A stretch of 64,000 nucleotides of DNA from assembly GCA_035636595.1 (NCBI GenBank), contig DASPYU010000023.1, positions 85,846-149,845 of the forward strand, read 5' to 3'. Positions within the stretch are counted from its first letter, which is position 1. Each line of letters begins with the position of its first letter. The translations under genes were made by a program, and so were the position numbers. The DNA comes from Thermoplasmata archaeon. GTDB lineage: Archaea > Thermoplasmatota > Thermoplasmata > RBG-16-68-12. Below are positions 1,871 to 9,055 of the stretch, in pieces. The notes beneath the pieces are model-generated. The model saw only the letters and a program-made list of their open reading frames with translations, had not been told where the DNA came from and did not search any database.

Positions 1871-2293
1871 CTAATCCCGCTGAGACGCCTGTGACGGAGC
1901 CTCCTGGACGAATTCGAGGAGGACGCCGTGGGCCGAACGGGGATGTACGAACGCGACGAGACGCCCGTGCGCGCCTCGACGCGGGTTTTCGTCGACGAGC
2001 TCGAAGCCTTGCGCACGCGCCCCGCGGATCGTTGCGTGAATGTCGTCCGTCGCGAACGCGATGTGGTGCACGCCTTCGCCGTGGCGTTCGATGAAGCGGG
2101 CGATGACGCCGTCGGGTCGGATCGACTCGAGGAGCTCGATTTTGACGGGGCCCGCGGGGAGGAAAGCCGCCCGCACGCCCTCCGAAGGGATTTCTTCCAC
2201 GGACTCGGGCTCGAAGCCGAGAGCGCGATAGATGGCCAGCCCCTCGTCGAGCCGTTTCAGGGCGATGCCGACGTGATGCGCGGTCCGGATCAC
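1871..2293 (-). CDS. mce: Methylmalonyl-CoA epimerase (VOC family)
   Basis: From GTG at 2293: HHVGIA...KIELLE...[14 protein letters not shown]...[17 protein letters not shown]; overlaps the stop of the mutase gene. Confidence 0.92.
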
Positions 2294-3942
2294 ACTTCCT
2301 GCCTCTCGCGGTACGTGCCGAATGCGGATCGGAGAACATCGCTGATTTCCCCCAGCGTCGCGTTCGCTCGGACGGAGGCCAGGATGGCCGGCACCAGGTT
2401 CTCGCTTGAGCGTGCCGCCGCGTCGAGTCGATCCTGGGCGCGATGCACCGCCTTCGGATCCCGGTCGCGCCGGAACCCCTTGATCCGCCGGACCTGGGTC
2501 GCTTCGAGCTTCGGGTCCGGGGCGTGGATCGGCATGCGGTCGGCTCCTTCGACGAACGCATTCACGCCCACGACGGTCCGTTCTCCCTTCTCCAGTTCCA
2601 TCTGGAACCGGTAGGCGGAGTCGGCAATCTGCCGCTGCACCCAACCCGTTTCGATCACCTTGCGCATCCCGCCGCGGCGATCCACCTCCCGGATCAATTC
2701 GGAGGCCTGCGACTCGATACGGTCCGTGAGGGATTCGATCGCGAACGAGCCGGCGGTCGGGTCGACCGTGTTCGCGACGCCGCTCTCGCGGGCCAAGATC
2801 TGTTGCGTCCGGAGCGCGAGACGGACGGCCCGCTCCGAAGGGAGGGAAAGGGCTTCGTCCATGCTGTTCGTGTGGAGGGACTGCGCCCCGCCGAGGACGG
2901 CGGCGAGCGCCTGAATGGCCACCCGCACCGCATTGTTCTCCGGCTGCTGGGCCGTCAGAGCAACCCCCGCCGTCTGCGCGTGGAACCGCAACGCGAGGGA
3001 CTCCGGCTTCTTCGCGTGAAATCGCTCCGCCATGATCGAAGCCCATAGCCGCCGCGCGGCCCGGAACTTCGCGATTTCTTCCAACAGATCCATGTGCGCG
3101 TTGAAGAAGAAGGAAATCTGGGGCGCGATGACGTCGACGTCAAGGCCGCGATCGACGGCCGCTTCGGTGTACGCGATTCCGTTGGCGAGGGTGAAGCCGA
3201 GTTCCTGAACGGCGGTCGCGCCGGCTTCTCGGATATGGTATCCGCTCACGCTGATTGCGTTCCACTTCGGGACCTCGCGGGCACAGAAGTCGATGACGTC
3301 GATCGCGAGACGCATCGAAGGCTCCGGCGGATAGATGTACGTCGACCGCGCGATGTATTCCTTCAGGATGTCGTTCTGGACCGTCCCGCGAAGAGCCGCC
3401 CGAGGGATGCCGCGCCGCTCCGCGACCGCGATGTAGAGCGCCAAGAGAGTGGCCGCCGTCGCGTTGATCGTCATGCTCGTGCTGACACGGTCGAGCGGCA
3501 GACCGTCGAGGAGCATGCGCATGTCGTCGATGGTCGGGATCGAGACGCCGACGCGTCCGACCTCCCCGCGCGCCATCGGTGCGTCGCTGTCGTAGCCCAT
3601 CTGGGTCGGCAGGTCAAACGCGACGCTCAGGCCCTCATTTCCCTGCGATAACAGATAGCGGAATCGCCGGTTCGTTTCCTTGGCGGTGCCGAATCCCGCG
3701 TACTGGCGCATCGTCCAGAGCCGGCCTCGGTACATGGTTGCGCGAATGCCTCGGGTAAAGGGCGGCTCACCGGGGAACCCGATTCGGGACCGGAACTCAC
3801 CCGGCGGGAGATCGCGGGCCGAAACGACCACGGGAACCGATAGTCCGCCCTGGGTTTTGTCCGCCGCAACGGCACGTTCGACGGCTTCCGACTTGACGAC
3901 CTTGACTTTCCGAGGCTGCTTCGCCTTCGAGCGCGCCGCCAC
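2290..3942 (-). CDS. Methylmalonyl-CoA mutase, large (substrate-binding) subunit
   Basis: [62 protein letters not shown]; start estimated at GTG 3942. Confidence 0.92.
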
Positions 3943-5890: not shown

Positions 5891-6913
5891 TCAGTACGAC
5901 TCCCATCGGAGCCCGAGGGGCTCATGGAACACCCCGCGACCGCGCGCGACCTCTCCGACAGTCTTTGCGGAAACGCCCGGCCGCAAGGCGCGAACGACGT
6001 CCTTCGCGACCGCGGCCGGCGCGACGATCGCGAAGCCCATCCCCATGTTGAACGTCTCATACATCTCCCGGTCCTCGATTCCTCCGAGCCGCTGAATTTC
6101 GCGGAACACGAGGGGCTGCTCGAGCGGGTCTGTGATTCGGAACTCGACATTGGCTTTGAGTCGGGCGAGGTTACGAAGGCCCCCACCCGTGATGTGCGCC
6201 ATCCCATGGAGCCGGGCCTTTCGGACCGCGCGGAGGACCGGCCGCACGTAAATCGCCGTTGGCTCCAGAAGTTCCTCGCCCCACGGCCGACCACTCCCGC
6301 TGACCGGATCGAAGACGGTCAGGGAGGCGTCGCGGAGGAGTCGGCGAGCGAGGGTGAGCCCGTTCGAGTGGATGCCGGTGCTCGGGAGGCCGATGATCAC
6401 GTCCCCGGGCCGGATCGCCCGGCCGTCGATCGCCTTCGTCTTGCGGACGACTCCGAAGCAGGTGCCGGCGAGGTCGAGCTCCCGCACGACATCCGGGACG
6501 ACCGCGATTTCGCCACCGATGATGGAGACGTTCGCCAGCTCGGCGCCCCGGTTCAGCCCGACGCCGATTTGCCGCGCGATCTCGCGGTCGTACTCGGAAA
6601 TTGCGACGTAGTCGACGAACGCAAGGGGTTCCGCGCCGATACAGATCATGTCGTTGACGTTCATCGCGACGCAGTCAATCCCGATCGTGTCCCAGCGCCG
6701 CATGTCCTTCGCCACGAGCGTCTTGGTGCCGACGCTATCCGTGCAGAGGGAGAGCGCGTACGCGCCGAACTCGACGAGGCCGGTGAAGTGCCCGATCTTG
6801 GTGAGGGGCCGCCCCATGCCCCTTCGCCGATAGGTCAGGGCGGCGACCAAGGCGGCGATGTGCGCCGCCTTCTCGTCCTGGCTGACGCCGGCCTCGGCGT
6901 AGGTCCGCACCAC
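5891..6913 (-). CDS. purM: Phosphoribosylformylglycinamidine cyclo-ligase (AIR synthase)
   Basis: TYAEAGV, TDSVGTK, GIDCVAMNVND, STGIHSNG, AHITGGG, TFNMGMG. Confidence 0.95.
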   Translation of the reverse strand: MVRTYAEAGVSQDEKAAHIAALVAALTYRRRGMGRPLTKIGHFTGLVEFGAYALSLCTDSVGTKTLVAKDMRRWDTIGIDCVAMNVNDMICIGAEPLAFVDYVAISEYDREIARQIGVGLNRGAELANVSIIGGEIAVVPDVVRELDLAGTCFGVVRKTKAIDGRAIRPGDVIIGLPSTGIHSNGLTLARRLLRDASLTVFDPVSGSGRPWGEELLEPTAIYVRPVLRAVRKARLHGMAHITGGGLRNLARLKANVEFRITDPLEQPLVFREIQRLGGIEDREMYETFNMGMGFAIVAPAAVAKDVVRALRPGVSAKTVGEVARGRGVFHEPLGLRWESY

Positions 6914-6995
6914 AAGGGCACGGAAGCGGGCGCGGATATTTCAAGGGTTCCGGACGCAAACCGTTATGCTCGGGCGCTGGCATCGTCGCGCTCGC

Positions 6996-7595
6996 ATGGG
7001 GAAGGCCTGGGTCAAGGCCCGGAAACACGACCGGTTCTACCGCGCCGCGAAACGTCAAGAGTATCGGAGCCGCGCGGCGATCAAACTGTCCCAGATCGAC
7101 ATCCGCTACGCCCTCTTCCGAGAAGGCGACGTGGTCGTGGACCTGGGTGCGTCGCCGGGCGGCTGGTCCCAGATCGCCACCGAACGGATCGGGCCGAAGG
7201 GGCGGGTCATCGCCGTGGACCTCGCCCCGATGAGTCCCCTCGAGGGCGTCGAGTTCGTCCGCGGCGATTTCACGGATCCCGGGGTTCGCTCGCGACTCTT
7301 CGAAGAACTTCGACGGCCCGCGGACGTGGTCCTGAGCGACATGGCGCCGCGAATCAGCGGCAACCGCTCGGTCGATGTCGCGCGAGCCCTCGACCTGGCC
7401 GACGCCGCATTGACGTTTTCCGTCCGCGCCCTCCGCCGAGACGGCTCGTTGCTCGTGAAGGTCTTTCAAGGAGCCGGATACCCGGCTTTCGTGCGACGGG
7501 TCGCGTCCTCGTTCGAGGCGGTGAAGGGCGTCAAACCCAGCGCGTCGTCGGGGCGCAGTTCGGAAATCTACGTCCTTGCGATCGGCCGCCGCTAG
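6996..7595 (+). CDS. rlmE: 23S rRNA Um2552 2'-O-methyltransferase (RrmJ/FtsJ)
   Basis: YRSRAAIKL, VVDLGASPGGWSQ, VVLSDMAP, LLVKVFQG, SSEIY. Confidence 0.95.
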   Translation: MGKAWVKARKHDRFYRAAKRQEYRSRAAIKLSQIDIRYALFREGDVVVDLGASPGGWSQIATERIGPKGRVIAVDLAPMSPLEGVEFVRGDFTDPGVRSRLFEELRRPADVVLSDMAPRISGNRSVDVARALDLADAALTFSVRALRRDGSLLVKVFQGAGYPAFVRRVASSFEAVKGVKPSASSGRSSEIYVLAIGRR

Positions 7596-8737
7596 GCGCG
7601 AGCGGCTTTGGAGATCGACCGCGCTCGCTCCAGGCACGCTTGGGCTTCGGCGCGCGACCCGAGGCGAGCCAGGACTTCGCCGCGGTTCAGCCAAGCCGCG
7701 ACGTACTCGGGCCGCAGCTTCGTGGCCTTTGCGTGGCATGTGTCCGCCTCCGCGAAGCGGTTCATCCGCGCGAGGACGACGCCCTTGTTGTTCCACGCGA
7801 TTGCGTACCTCGGCCGGATCCCGATCGCCTTGTCGTAGCACTCGAGCGCCTTGCCGAGCTCGCCCTTTCGGAAGTACACCGTCCCGAGGTTGCACCAGGC
7901 GACTTCGTTCTCCGCGTCCAGGCGAATCGCGTTCTCGTGACAGCGGAGCGCGTCGTCGAGCCGGCCCAGGTATTTCATCGCGACCCCGCGAGACGTCCAA
8001 GCGTACGAGGGCCGGCGTACGATGCGAATCGCCCGCTCGTAGTGGCCCAAGGCTTCCTCATACCGGCCGGCTTTCACGAGCCGGTCCCCGCGGGCCACCT
8101 CGCTGTTCGAGACGCGAAAGAGGACCGCCCCCGAGACCATGCCGGCCGCGGCGACCGCTGCGAAGAGCGCGATGGGCAACAGGTTCGACGGATCGAACGG
8201 GTTCGCATACATCCGGAAGAAGAGGAAGACGGCGAGCAGGCCGGCGATGCTGCCAAGGGTCACGAGATCGATCATCCGGCCAGAAATCCGGACCAGCTTC
8301 CGGCCTTCGGTGTCTGCGGGCGTCGCCAGGACGGGGACATGCTCGACGCCGCCGAGGTCCTCGGGGAGCGGCTCCGACCGGACCGAGACGGTCGAACGAG
8401 GGGCTGGACGCCCGGCATCGGAAGCGGACGGTTGGATCTCGACGAGCAGCGAATCGAACAGTTGCTCCGCGGCCTCTTCATCGACCTCCTCGCTCTCGGT
8501 CTCCGACGGCCCGACCGGTTCCTCCTGGGGCGGGGCCTTCGACAGATCCAGGATGTCCTCGAGGAGGGCATCGACGCGATCCGTGGCCCGGGAGGTCGCC
8601 AGGGCGAAGCCGCAGGCCCCGCACACGTCCAGGTCCGGCGGATTGGATGCGCCACAGACGGGGCACGAGACGTTGGCCTGATCCGGCAAAGAAATCCGGT
8701 CGCACGACGAGAGCATGCCCGATAAACGTATCGCCAT
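7592..8737 (-). CDS. Zinc-ribbon + two-TM + TPR-repeat membrane protein
   Basis: N-terminal CPVC...CGAC, acidic linker, two hydrophobic helices, about 4 TPR repeats (AWTSRG, AWCNLG, AWNNKG, AWLNRG); start uncertain (8716-8791). Confidence 0.85.
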   Translation of the reverse strand: MAIRLSGMLSSCDRISLPDQANVSCPVCGASNPPDLDVCGACGFALATSRATDRVDALLEDILDLSKAPPQEEPVGPSETESEEVDEEAAEQLFDSLLVEIQPSASDAGRPAPRSTVSVRSEPLPEDLGGVEHVPVLATPADTEGRKLVRISGRMIDLVTLGSIAGLLAVFLFFRMYANPFDPSNLLPIALFAAVAAAGMVSGAVLFRVSNSEVARGDRLVKAGRYEEALGHYERAIRIVRRPSYAWTSRGVAMKYLGRLDDALRCHENAIRLDAENEVAWCNLGTVYFRKGELGKALECYDKAIGIRPRYAIAWNNKGVVLARMNRFAEADTCHAKATKLRPEYVAAWLNRGEVLARLGSRAEAQACLERARSISKAARA

Positions 8738-8847
8738 GGGTTTCCGGCATGAGAGGATTGCATTGTCGACTCGGAGCAAAGACGGGCCCAAGATCGCCGC
8801 CTTGTCGCCAATTCGAAGGAGAGAAAAACGGGACCGGTCGGAGCAAG

Positions 8848-8857
8848 TATTATATAG
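8848..8857 (+). promoter_or_regulatory. TATA box (TATTATATAG) about 25 nt upstream of the structured RNA candidate; could also serve the divergent TPR gene
   Basis: AT-rich box preceded by purine-rich GAGCAAG (BRE-like) in a GC-rich background. Confidence 0.6.
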
Positions 8858-8875
8858 CGTTCAGATTCCTGGACG

Positions 8876-9046
8876 GTCGCTTCCGGAAGGCCCAATCAGG
8901 TTGCGGGGAGGCAATCGGGCCCGTTGACGGAACCCCTCGGGTCCGACGACCGCTCCCCACCACACACCCACACCGAGAGCCCGGCGGACGTCGCGGTCCT
9001 CCCGTCCCAACGGTCCGCTGGGCTCCCCGTTCTTTTCCGGAAGCAC
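8876..9046 (+). ncRNA. Unidentified structured RNA candidate (~170 nt)
   Basis: Terminal stem GCTTCCGGAA(8879-88)/TTCCGGAAGC(9035-44); 13-bp stem 8977-89/9013-25; additional stems; upstream TATA; no credible ORF. Confidence 0.6.
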
Positions 9047-9055
9047 TCGGCGGGT

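What the first reader, a model, noticed from the sequence alone, without database searches (positions are those of the whole stretch)
8876..9046. Unidentified ~170-nt structured RNA with its own TATA box and a probable pseudoknot or switch
Seen in sequence: this intergenic stretch between the TPR gene and the convergent lhr stop is closed by a long-range stem (8879-88/9035-44). It also holds GGCCC/GGGCC (8889-93/8917-21) enclosing a TTGC/GCAA hairpin, an ACCC/GGGT hairpin (8932-42), and a 13-bp helix GAGCCCGGCGGAC/GTCCGCTGGGCTC (8977-89/9013-25). GACCGC(8948-53)/GCGGTC(8993-98) crosses that helix, giving H-type pseudoknot topology. CCGTTG(8921-26)/CAACGG(9008-13) is a competing pairing. G-U wobbles work on the + strand, and TATTATATAG lies about 25 nt upstream of the first paired base. 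Knowledge: it lacks the RNase P GAGGAAAGUCC box, the SRP helix-8 loop, tRNA arms and C/D boxes. Inference: an independently transcribed, possibly undescribed archaeal ncRNA.
Basis: partly seen in the sequence, partly recalled or inferred. Interest (0 to 1): 0.8.

Follow-up and report, generated by a model that had tools for sequence, protein, structure and literature searches.

The report
Genus-specific small RNA gene beside lhr
This is very probably a real, previously undescribed small non-coding RNA gene of about 157 nt. It has its own promoter and terminator, is found in only one genus of uncultured soil Thermoplasmata archaea, and carries an invariant C/U-rich loop that resembles the ribosome's anti-Shine-Dalgarno sequence; its function is untested.

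Summary
Comparison with 33 distinct homologues supports a real RNA gene on the + strand.

**Shared features**
- An A-rich BRE plus TATA box lies a fixed 20-23 nt before a conserved GCUUCCGGAA start.
- A variable hairpin follows, then a G-rich/C-rich stem (SL2) and a conserved unpaired CCCACAC.
- A T-run ends the gene.

- The proposed pseudoknot, the TTGC/GCAA hairpin and the CCGTTG/CAACGG pairing are not conserved.
- The 10-bp closing stem exists only in the window's own sub-clade.

**Identity and distribution**
- No Rfam family matches. RNase P RNA and SRP RNA are found elsewhere in the genome.
- The gene is single-copy and always converges on the lhr stop codon.
- It is present in 18 of 38 genomes of its genus and absent from 103 other Thermoplasmata genera sampled.
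- Two same-genus genomes have an empty site.

**Function**
The most likely role (inferred) is a base-pairing regulatory sRNA whose C-rich unpaired motifs mask G-rich ribosome-binding sites. An antisense effect on the lhr 3' end is the main rival.

The parts
8843..8857 (+). Promoter: A-rich BRE-like stretch followed by the TATA box (TTATATA at 8850-8856)
   Evidence: In 29 distinct homologous promoters a TTAAATA/TTATATA box ends 20-23 nt before the conserved GCTTCC. The SRP RNA gene of the same genome has ATTAAATA followed by 21 nt. The box is missing together with the RNA gene in the empty-site genomes, which still keep the TPR gene.
8879..9036 (+). Predicted RNA, about 157 nt. The predicted start is G8879, and the predicted 3' end falls in the T-run at 9030-9036.
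   Evidence: The ends are inferred from promoter spacing and T-run position in 32-33 distinct homologues. Neither end was mapped experimentally.
8879..8889 (+). Conserved 5' motif GCUUCCGGAAG, containing the palindrome UUCCGGAA
   Evidence: The motif is nearly invariant at the 5' end of almost all homologues. It has a consistent pairing partner only in clade A.
8905..8959 (+). SL2. The base helix is GGGGAG 8905-10 / CUCCCC 8954-59. The upper helix is GGGCCCG 8917-23 / CGGGUCC 8938-44.
   Evidence: The G-rich motif pairs with the C-rich strand before the linker with mean probability 0.63 over 32 sequences. The 7-bp core is 70-100% paired, with G-C / A-U / U-A alternation at one position. The upper helix is 100% paired in clade A, with a G-U to A-U change.
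8967..8973 (+). Conserved unpaired linker CCCACAC
   Evidence: These columns are invariant or nearly invariant in A3. The segment is unpaired in the MFE folds.
8977..9025 (+). Its apical mini-hairpin is GCGG 8993-96 / CCGU 9002-05, closing the loop UCCUC at 8997-9001.
   Evidence: - 88% of cells are paired over 33 distinct sequences.
- Five pairs change on both sides.
- The covariation score exceeds all 500 shuffles.
- The inner stem differs by clade while remaining paired.
- GUCCUCC is invariant in all 32 sequences of A3.
- G-U outnumbers A-C by 27 to 6.
9026..9036 (+). C-rich tail followed by the T-run CCCCGTTCTTTT, a probable archaeal oligo-T terminator
   Evidence: CCCCUUUCUUU(U) directly follows SL3 in clades B, C and D. 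In the other clade-A members the T-run instead follows the 3' palindrome copy.
9035..9044 (+).
   Evidence: It is 100% paired with 8879-88 in the 9 clade-A sequences, at about -20 kcal/mol, matched by at most 3% of shuffles. In the window it overlaps and follows the T-run, so it enters the RNA only on read-through.
9056..11800 (-). lhr (large helicase-related) gene, converging on the RNA gene. The stop codon is at 9056-58.
   Evidence: Pfam matches to DEAD, Helicase_C, WH_Lhr and DEAD_assoc. The lhr 3' end lies next to the RNA in 48 fetched loci.
7592..8689 (-). TPR/zinc-ribbon protein gene, divergent from the RNA promoter. The probable start is TTG at 8689, with its own TATA-like GTTTAT at 8727-8722.
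   Evidence: Pfam TPR_1 at 6e-32. The N-terminus and the leader CGATAAACGTATCG are conserved, including in genomes that lack the RNA gene.

Best explanation
The window carries a single-copy, independently transcribed small non-coding RNA gene on the + strand, roughly 8879-9036 and about 157 nt.

**Architecture**
- A strong archaeal BRE/TATA promoter places the start at the G of a conserved GCUUCCGGAA motif.
- A variable first hairpin follows.
- A long hairpin (SL2) pairs a Shine-Dalgarno-like G-rich strand (GGGGAGG) with a C/U-rich strand.
- A conserved single-stranded CCCACAC comes next.
- A terminal hairpin (SL3) has a variable stem and presents an invariant GUCCUCC at its tip.
- An oligo-U terminator tail ends the RNA.

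**Distribution**
- The gene is a recent invention of one genus of soil and groundwater Thermoplasmata. The order is probably RBG-16-68-12, also called Ca. Angelarchaeales.
- It always sits tail-to-tail with lhr.

**Mechanism (inferred, not shown)**
- It acts in trans as a base-pairing regulator.
- Its exposed C-rich segments, the UCCUC(C) loop and CCCACAC, pair with G-rich ribosome-binding regions of Shine-Dalgarno-led mRNAs and block translation initiation.
- This is how Methanosarcina sRNA41 and sRNA154 and the bacterial RsaE/RoxS are reported to work.

**Confidence by part**
- Real structured RNA gene: about 0.8.
- The stated mechanism: about 0.35-0.4.
For: **Promoter**
- TATA plus an A-rich BRE ends a fixed 20-23 nt before the 5' motif in 29 distinct promoters.
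- The promoter has the same form as the SRP RNA promoter of this genome.

**Terminator**
- A T-run directly follows SL3, or follows the closing stem in clade A.

**Structure**
- SL3 is 88% paired over 33 distinct sequences, has 5 doubly changed pairs, and its covariation score exceeds all 500 shuffles.
- The inner stem sequences differ between clades but stay paired.
- The SL2 core is 70-100% paired, with G-C / A-U / U-A alternation, and mean pairing probability is 0.63.

**Strand**
- G-U pairs outnumber A-C pairs 27 to 6.
- The mean MFE z-score is -1.76 on the + strand against -0.88 on the - strand.

**Non-coding**
- Hairpin and total lengths vary by numbers that are not multiples of 3.
- No conserved start codon or open frame is seen.

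**Conserved unpaired sequence**
- GUCCUCC and CCCA..C are invariant while the stems vary.

**Unit behaviour**
- Promoter, RNA and terminator are absent together in same-genus genomes G019 and G054, which keep both lhr and the TPR gene.

**Not a known RNA**
- No Rfam hit.
- RNase P RNA and SRP RNA are found elsewhere in the genome.

**Plausibility of the mechanism**
- Shine-Dalgarno-like motifs peak at -13 to -9 of candidate starts in this genome.
- Archaeal sRNAs that mask ribosome-binding sites are documented (PMC5867862).
Against:
- Thermodynamic stability is only modestly above shuffled controls.
- RNAduplex target prediction against about 7,700 candidate start regions was no better than with shuffled loop sequences, so no target is identified.
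- The UCCUC loop is only 5-8 nt long, and its flanks are paired.
- Strict linkage to the lhr 3' end in all 48 loci, and the survival of SL3 alone beside lhr in G012, could instead indicate a local cis function.
- The conserved palindromic 5' motif is not explained by the trans-acting model.
Confidence: 0.55

Rival explanations
1. The RNA acts in cis, as an antisense or convergent-transcription element for lhr. It is transcribed head-on against lhr. The lhr mRNA would read through the whole RNA gene before reaching the first minus-strand T-run. The two transcripts would then form a duplex of about 150 bp, or the polymerases would collide. Either would set lhr 3'-end formation and stability and would insulate the downstream TPR gene from read-through.
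For: - The RNA gene lies 10-35 nt from the lhr stop, in convergent orientation, in all 48 loci where flanks are available.
- In the window, the first T-run of at least 4 on the minus strand after the lhr stop is TTTTT at 8830-8826, beyond the RNA promoter.
- A-rich stretches, which read as T-rich on the minus strand, precede the TATA in clades A and B.
- In G012 the SL3 and T-run module survives beside the lhr stop even though the 5' half was replaced.
- In the window the T-run is weak (TTCTTTT) and no further T-run follows, so read-through into lhr antisense is possible.
Against: - lhr exists without the element in same-genus genomes and in every other genus examined.
- An antisense role needs no conserved secondary structure, compensatory changes or invariant loop.
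- The RNA does not overlap the lhr coding sequence.
- Some clade-C loci have no minus-strand T-run near the promoter.
Confidence: 0.2
2. The RNA binds protein, as a scaffold or decoy. The invariant GUCCUCC loop, the conserved SL3 outer stem, the palindromic 5' motif (which can form a duplex or a dimer) and the U-rich tail would be recognition sites for a protein, for example an Sm-like protein on the U-tail or a lineage-specific RNA-binding protein, rather than seeds for mRNA pairing.
For: - The SL3 outer stem GAGCCC/GGGCUC and the 5' motif are conserved in sequence, not only in pairing.
- The 5' motif has no conserved RNA partner in clades B, C and D.
- No target signal rises above background.
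Against: - No candidate protein gene is linked to the element. The upstream neighbour differs between clades.
- The genus-restricted, dispensable distribution fits a regulator better than a core RNP.
Confidence: 0.15
3. There is no functional RNA. The conservation would reflect DNA-level signals (a promoter or operator with a TTCCGGAA palindrome, and terminators for the neighbouring genes), recent common ancestry and GC-driven pairing.
For: - Homologues come from a single genus.
- MFE z-scores are modest.
- Slide controls for SL2 discriminate only weakly, 0.63 against about 0.5.
- TTCCGGAA is a DNA palindrome located at the predicted start.
Against: - SL3 stems differ in sequence between clades yet remain paired, while the loop stays invariant.
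- The G-U to A-C asymmetry is strand-specific.
- No other TTCCGGAA site in the genome lies behind a TATA box.
- A perfect promoter with nothing to transcribe is unlikely.
Confidence: 0.08

Closest known systems
Methanosarcina mazei sRNA41 and sRNA154 (intergenic archaeal sRNAs that mask ribosome-binding sites)
   Same: - It is an independently transcribed intergenic archaeal sRNA made of stem-loops.
- C/U-rich anti-RBS sequence is exposed in a loop.
- The proposed action is occlusion of Shine-Dalgarno sites, including sites inside polycistronic mRNAs (PMC5867862, read).
   Different: - No sequence relationship was tested; their sequences were not at hand.
- The lineage differs: aerobic soil Thermoplasmata rather than a methanogen.
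- No target, regulation or expression is known here.
- This RNA adds a conserved palindromic 5' motif and fixed linkage to lhr.
RsaE/RoxS of Firmicutes, and the C-rich hairpin loops of S. aureus RNAIII
   Same: Several unpaired C-rich motifs, in a loop and in a linker, sit ahead of a terminator hairpin and U-tail. Such motifs pair with G-rich Shine-Dalgarno regions (established knowledge of these families).
   Different: - Those are bacterial families, and there is no Rfam match here.
- The motif here is UCCUCC/CCCACAC rather than UCCC/CCCC.
- This is an analogy of design, not homology.
Archaeal stable RNAs (SRP RNA, RNase P RNA, C/D and H/ACA guide RNAs)
   Same: - The promoter is of the same type as the SRP RNA gene of this genome.
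- The RNA is GC-rich, structured and non-coding.
   Different: - SRP RNA and RNase P RNA are found elsewhere in the genome at scores above their Rfam cut-offs.
- There are no C/D boxes conserved across clades and no ACA box after the hairpin.
- The gene is dispensable within its genus.

Membership tests
Any Rfam 15 family | A covariance-model match at or near the gathering score | tested here: not met
   The window at gathering threshold gave only 3 tRNAs elsewhere. The region 8650-9150 at E<=10 gave only a meaningless lncRNA match at 11.6 bits. Six homologous loci at E<=1 gave nothing.
Archaeal RNase P RNA (RF00373) | A match to the RNase P model (P4 helix and conserved regions), normally one gene per genome | tested here: not met
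   The genome's RNase P RNA is at G000 C13:29347-29627, at 189.8 bits. The element gives no hit.
Archaeal SRP RNA (RF01857) | A match to the SRP model, including helix 8 | tested here: not met
   The genome's SRP RNA is at C12:41-353, at 177.8 bits. The element gives no hit.
C/D box sRNA | A C box (RUGAUGA) near the 5' end and a D box (CUGA) near the 3' end, forming a K-turn | tested here: not met
   Only clade B has CGAUGA, in the linker. Clades A, C, D and the window have other sequence there. No CUGA lies next to the 3' end.
H/ACA sRNA | A hairpin with a pseudouridylation pocket and K-turn or K-loop, followed by an ACA box | tested here: not met
   SL3 is followed by CCCCUUUCUUU(U) in clades B-D, by CCCCGUUCUUUU in the window, and by CCGYCC...UUCCGGAAG in the other clade-A members. 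None has ACA/ANA.
Trans-acting, RBS-masking archaeal sRNA (functional class of sRNA41/sRNA154) | Own promoter and terminator in an intergenic region | tested here: met
   A conserved BRE/TATA at fixed spacing and a T-run are present. This is sequence evidence only; no transcript data were available.
Trans-acting, RBS-masking archaeal sRNA (functional class of sRNA41/sRNA154) | An exposed sequence complementary to the Shine-Dalgarno motif | tested here: met
   The invariant GUCCUCC lies in the SL3 apical loop. SD-like GGAGG-type motifs peak at -13 to -9 of candidate starts.
Trans-acting, RBS-masking archaeal sRNA (functional class of sRNA41/sRNA154) | Specific complementarity to the RBS of identifiable target mRNAs, with an effect on their translation | tested here: inconclusive
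   An RNAduplex scan of 7,715 candidate start regions gave a distribution no different from 10 shuffled loop sequences. The effect on translation cannot be tested with these tools.
Riboswitch or cis-regulatory leader | Location in the 5' UTR of a same-strand downstream gene | tested here: not met
   The only thing downstream on the + strand is the antisense of lhr. The flanking genes are both on the minus strand.
MITE or other mobile element | Multiple copies per genome, terminal inverted repeats with a target-site duplication, or occurrence on viruses or plasmids | tested here: not met
   There is a single copy in the genome, always at the same locus. No duplication is visible when filled and empty sites are compared. 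No match was found in phage, plasmid or viral collections.
Small protein gene | A conserved open frame with a start codon, and indels in multiples of three | tested here: not met
   SL3 lengths are 45-50 nt and total lengths 158-182 nt, differing by non-multiples of 3. There is no conserved start after the SD-like motif. Pfam finds nothing in the two local ORFs.

The most novel reading that the evidence does not exclude
The RNA could be a self-masking mimic of the translation-initiation duplex. It carries one Shine-Dalgarno-like strand (GGGGAGG) and up to three competing anti-SD-like C/U-rich strands: the 5' CUUCC, the pre-linker CUCCCC and the invariant SL3 loop UCCUCC. Alternative conformers would then expose or hide the loop. 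This would make a conformational riboregulator that tunes translation of the SD-led minority of genes in a largely leaderless archaeon, possibly coupled to the Lhr helicase encoded tail-to-tail with it, with Lhr as remodeller or the lhr 3' UTR as the perfectly complementary partner.
Probability: 0.12. Interest if true: 0.65.

Novelty: new member of a known kind. Interest (0 to 1): 0.4.

Why it matters
- Very few regulatory RNAs are known from Thermoplasmata, and none from the uncultured soil order RBG-16-68-12 (Ca. Angelarchaeales). That order is abundant in some soils and carries unusual copper monooxygenases (PMC9038741).
- This would be a cleanly delimited, comparatively supported sRNA family for that lineage, with promoter, terminator, covarying stems and an invariant loop.
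- Filled and empty sites within one genus show that it arose recently, so it is a natural case for studying how new archaeal sRNA genes originate.
- If the anti-Shine-Dalgarno-like loop does mask ribosome-binding sites, that mechanism would extend beyond methanogens.
- In kind, however, it remains one more lineage-specific intergenic sRNA, and its function is unproven.

Tried and rejected
**Known families**
1. Rfam at gathering and at permissive thresholds, on the window and on six homologues, found nothing.
2. RNase P RNA and SRP RNA were rejected because both are found elsewhere in the genome. tRNA, C/D and H/ACA RNAs were rejected by reading the sequences.

3. The pseudoknot, TTGC/GCAA and CCGTTG/CAACGG are not conserved in the closest homologues.
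4. The closing stem as a family feature fails: only clade A has it. In clades B, C and D the 5' motif has no partner better than shuffles.

**Alternative readings of the locus**
5. The long + ORF 5924-8725 as the upstream gene is spurious. The real genes, TPR and an AIR-synthase-like gene, are on the minus strand.
6. The TATA box as the TPR promoter fails. The TPR gene keeps its own conserved GTTTAT leader in genomes that lack this TATA.
7. TTCCGGAA as a general operator fails. There are 76 sites in the genome against about 23 expected from composition. Only this locus has a TATA in front among the 17 GCTTCCGGAA sites whose context was printed.
8. A mobile element or viral origin fails: the element is single-copy and has no phage, plasmid or viral match.

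**Searches that gave nothing**
9. More distant homologues: the CM of the 3' domain found none in 9 other genera of the order. It also found none in 103 other genera of the class; two hits near E=1e-3 are at chance level.
10. Target prediction with RNAduplex was no better than with shuffled loops.
12. Earlier scan notes hold nothing on this element.
13. RNAalifold on MAFFT alignments of the 5' half failed, because the variable hairpin tips do not align.

Full report
**Observation**

The longest helix in 8876-9046 is the 13-bp stem 8977-89/9013-25, which contains one G-U pair. The longest Watson-Crick helix is the 10-bp pairing 8879-88/9035-44. Helices of these lengths arise in 11/300 and 12/300 dinucleotide shuffles respectively. 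The whole region folds with a z-score of about -2 on either strand. In a 65% GC genome the single sequence is therefore suggestive and no more, and the case has to rest on comparison with relatives.

**Context, corrected**

- The right-hand neighbour is lhr on the minus strand (9056-11800; Pfam DEAD, Helicase_C, WH_Lhr, DEAD_assoc).
- The long + strand ORF 5924-8725 has no Pfam match. It is the antisense shadow of two real minus-strand genes: a zinc-ribbon/TPR protein (7592-8791 stop-to-stop; TPR_1 6e-32) and an AIR-synthase-like protein (5891-6913).
- The order is therefore lhr (-), the element, then TPR (-). The element's + strand converges on the lhr stop and diverges from the TPR start.
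- Comparison of N-termini places the TPR start at TTG 8689. A conserved TATA-like GTTTAT lies at 8727-8722.
- lhr itself is leaderless, with ACTTTTAG about 26 nt before its ATG.

**Relatives**

- The element is single-copy in its own genome of 2.2 Mb in 26 contigs.
- BLAST in same-genus genomes found one full-length relative at 75% identity. It also found many hits to a 70-nt core at 8966-9037.
- A covariance model of that core (R1) found it in 18 of 38 genomes of the genus. It found none in the sister genus.
- No credible hit appeared in the other 9 genera of the order or in 103 other genera of the class; two hits near E=1e-3 among 401 genomes are at chance level.
- An exact-pattern scan of all GTDB species genomes and of JGI/ENA metagenomes added more copies. 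These came from records titled Thermoplasmata, Methanomassiliicoccales, Methanobacteriota or 'Euryarchaeota archaeon RBG_19FT_COMBO_69_17'. The contigs are apparently from soil, sediment and groundwater samples.
- In 48 fetched loci the lhr 3' end lies 10-35 nt downstream in convergent orientation.
- After removing duplicates there are 33 distinct full-length sequences.
- The MAG names suggest the order RBG-16-68-12, also called Ca. Angelarchaeales (PMC9038741). This lineage assignment is an inference.

**Anatomy shared by the homologues**

1. Promoter.
   - A TTAAATA/TTATATA box preceded by an A-rich stretch ends 20-23 nt before a conserved GCTTCCGGAA.
   - The SRP RNA gene of the same genome has ATTAAATA followed by 21 nt.
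   - In the window TTATATA is at 8850-56, and the G of GCUUCC is at 8879.
2. A variable first hairpin.
3. SL2.
   - A G-rich strand (GGGGAGG, GAGGGAG and similar) pairs with a C/U-rich strand just before the linker, around a tip of variable length and sequence.
   - The G-rich motif pairs there with mean probability 0.63.
   - With a single A-U pair used as anchor, the seven surrounding positions are 70-100% paired, and one of them alternates G-C / A-U / U-A.
   - Slid registers also pair about 50% of the time, because G-runs face C/U-runs.
   - Clade-specific extensions such as GUGCG...CGCAC or CAG...CUG lengthen the stem.
4. An unpaired, almost invariant CCCACAC.
   - The outer stem GAGCCC/GGGCUC is conserved.
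   - The inner stem differs between clades but stays paired. Examples are GCGGAC/GUCCGC, GAGGC/GCCUU, GCGGG/CCCGC, GGGGG/CCCCU and GGGCGU/ACGCCC.
   - A CGG/CCG mini-helix closes a loop of UCCUC or UCCUCCUC.
   - On the model-guided alignment of 33 distinct sequences, 88% of cells pair, 5 of 13 pairs change on both sides, and the covariation score exceeds all 500 shuffles.
   - GUCCUCC is invariant in all 32 sequences of A3.
6. A tail of CCCCUUUCUUU(U), read as an archaeal oligo-T terminator.

**Strand and coding potential**

- G-U pairs outnumber A-C pairs 27 to 6 in SL3.
- The mean MFE z-score is -1.76 on the + strand against -0.88 on the - strand.
- The T-run is on the + strand.
- Lengths differ by non-multiples of three (45-50 nt for SL3, 158-182 nt overall), and no start codon or frame is conserved. 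It is not a small protein gene.

| Pairing | Result |
|---|---|
| Closing stem 8879-88/9035-44 | 100% paired |
| SL3 | 90% paired |
| GGCCC/GGGCC | 84% paired, but excluded by GGGCCCG 8917-23 / CGGGUCC 8938-44 (100% paired; gains an A-U where one homologue changed) |
| ACCC/GGGT | invariant, and conflicts with the same helix |
| TTGC/GCAA | 32% paired |
| Pseudoknot GACCGC/GCGGUC | broken at two of six positions in 8 of 9 sequences |
| CCGTTG/CAACGG | broken at two of five tested positions in 8 of 9 sequences |

- The closing stem is not a family feature. In clades B, C and D there is no 3' copy of the palindrome, and the 5' motif finds no partner better than shuffled sequence.
- In the other clade-A members a TTTT follows the closing stem.
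- In the window the T-run (9030-36) overlaps the start of the 3' strand and nothing T-rich follows. The window's RNA therefore either ends at about 9036 without the stem or reads through into lhr antisense.

**Presence and absence**

- Two same-genus genomes that lack the RNA (G019, G054) have the lhr stop followed within about 50-75 nt by the conserved TPR leader. They have no TATA box, no RNA and no T-run.
- G004 has an FtsJ-like gene there.
- G012 keeps only SL3 and the T-run behind such a gene.
- Other genera have a winged-helix protein gene ending at the lhr stop.
- Promoter, RNA and terminator therefore behave as one unit that was gained, or lost, within the genus. This also shows that the TATA belongs to the RNA and not to the TPR gene.
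- Nothing links the element to mobile DNA.

**What it is not**

- There is no Rfam match for the window or for six homologous loci.
- RNase P RNA and SRP RNA are found elsewhere in the genome.
- C/D and ACA boxes are absent or not conserved.
- No same-strand gene lies downstream, so it is not a riboswitch or leader.

**Mechanism**

What is shown is the gene anatomy. Everything about function is inferred.
- The features conserved in sequence rather than only in pairing are the unpaired C-rich segments, namely the UCCUC(C) loop and CCCACAC. The G-rich SD-like strand and the 5' palindrome are also conserved in sequence.
- SD-like motifs are enriched at -13 to -9 of candidate starts in this genome.
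- Archaeal sRNAs that mask ribosome-binding sites with loop sequences are documented for Methanosarcina (PMC5867862). The bacterial RsaE/RoxS family uses the same design.
- I therefore favour a trans-acting, RBS-masking sRNA, at about 0.35-0.4.
- My attempt to find targets failed. Duplex energies against 7,715 candidate start regions were indistinguishable from those of shuffled loops.
- The strict tail-to-tail linkage with lhr keeps a cis-antisense or transcription-interference role alive, at about 0.2. The first minus-strand T-run after the lhr stop lies beyond the RNA promoter.
- A protein-binding role (about 0.15) would best explain the unexplained 5' palindrome.
- Pure DNA-level conservation is unlikely (about 0.08).

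**Verdict**

This is a real, new RNA family of a familiar kind: a lineage-specific intergenic archaeal sRNA. It is well delimited by comparative evidence.

Noticed in passing
window 5924-8725 (+): A 933-aa open frame with no Pfam match is the antisense shadow of two real minus-strand genes, TPR/zinc-ribbon at 7592-8791 and AIR-synthase-like at 5891-6913. It still gives 35-60% tblastn identity in relatives, which shows how misleading long ORFs are in this 65% GC genome.
   Followed up: yes
window 8715-8740; L183 and L184 next to the lhr stop: The sequence CGATAAACGTATCG upstream of the TPR gene is conserved even in genomes that lack the RNA gene. It probably holds the TPR promoter (GTTTAT on the minus strand), about 30-36 nt before a TTG start.
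   Followed up: partly
L033 (G012:C158), around 1440-1570: In one same-genus genome only the SL3 and T-run module survives. It sits about 50 nt after the stop of an FtsJ/RlmE-like gene and just before the lhr stop. It is either a decaying remnant or a module re-used as a 3' UTR or terminator.
   Followed up: partly
L186-L190 (sister genus and other families): Outside the genus, the position convergent to lhr is occupied by a small protein gene that appears, from reading its translated sequence, to encode a winged-helix transcription factor. Its stop abuts or overlaps the lhr stop codon.
   Followed up: no
window 11800-11850 (-): lhr appears to be leaderless. A TATA-like ACTTTTAG lies about 26 nt upstream of its ATG, with no Shine-Dalgarno motif.
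   Followed up: no
whole genome G000: The palindrome TTCCGGAA occurs at 76 sites against about 23 expected from base composition. Most printed GCTTCCGGAA contexts look like ordinary genic sequence with no TATA nearby, so the excess may be a codon-usage effect. Of the 17 GCTTCCGGAA sites whose context was printed, only the one at the RNA gene follows a TATA box.
   Followed up: partly
window 16144-16214 (-): A tRNA match sits exactly at Rfam's gathering score (29.3 bits, model positions 7-64 only). An earlier scan note describes an intron-containing CAU tRNA at this place.
   Followed up: no
clade B loci, e.g. L041 around 2000-3090: In clade B the TPR gene is missing. About 1.1 kb of unassigned sequence separates the RNA promoter from the AIR-synthase-like gene.
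   Followed up: no
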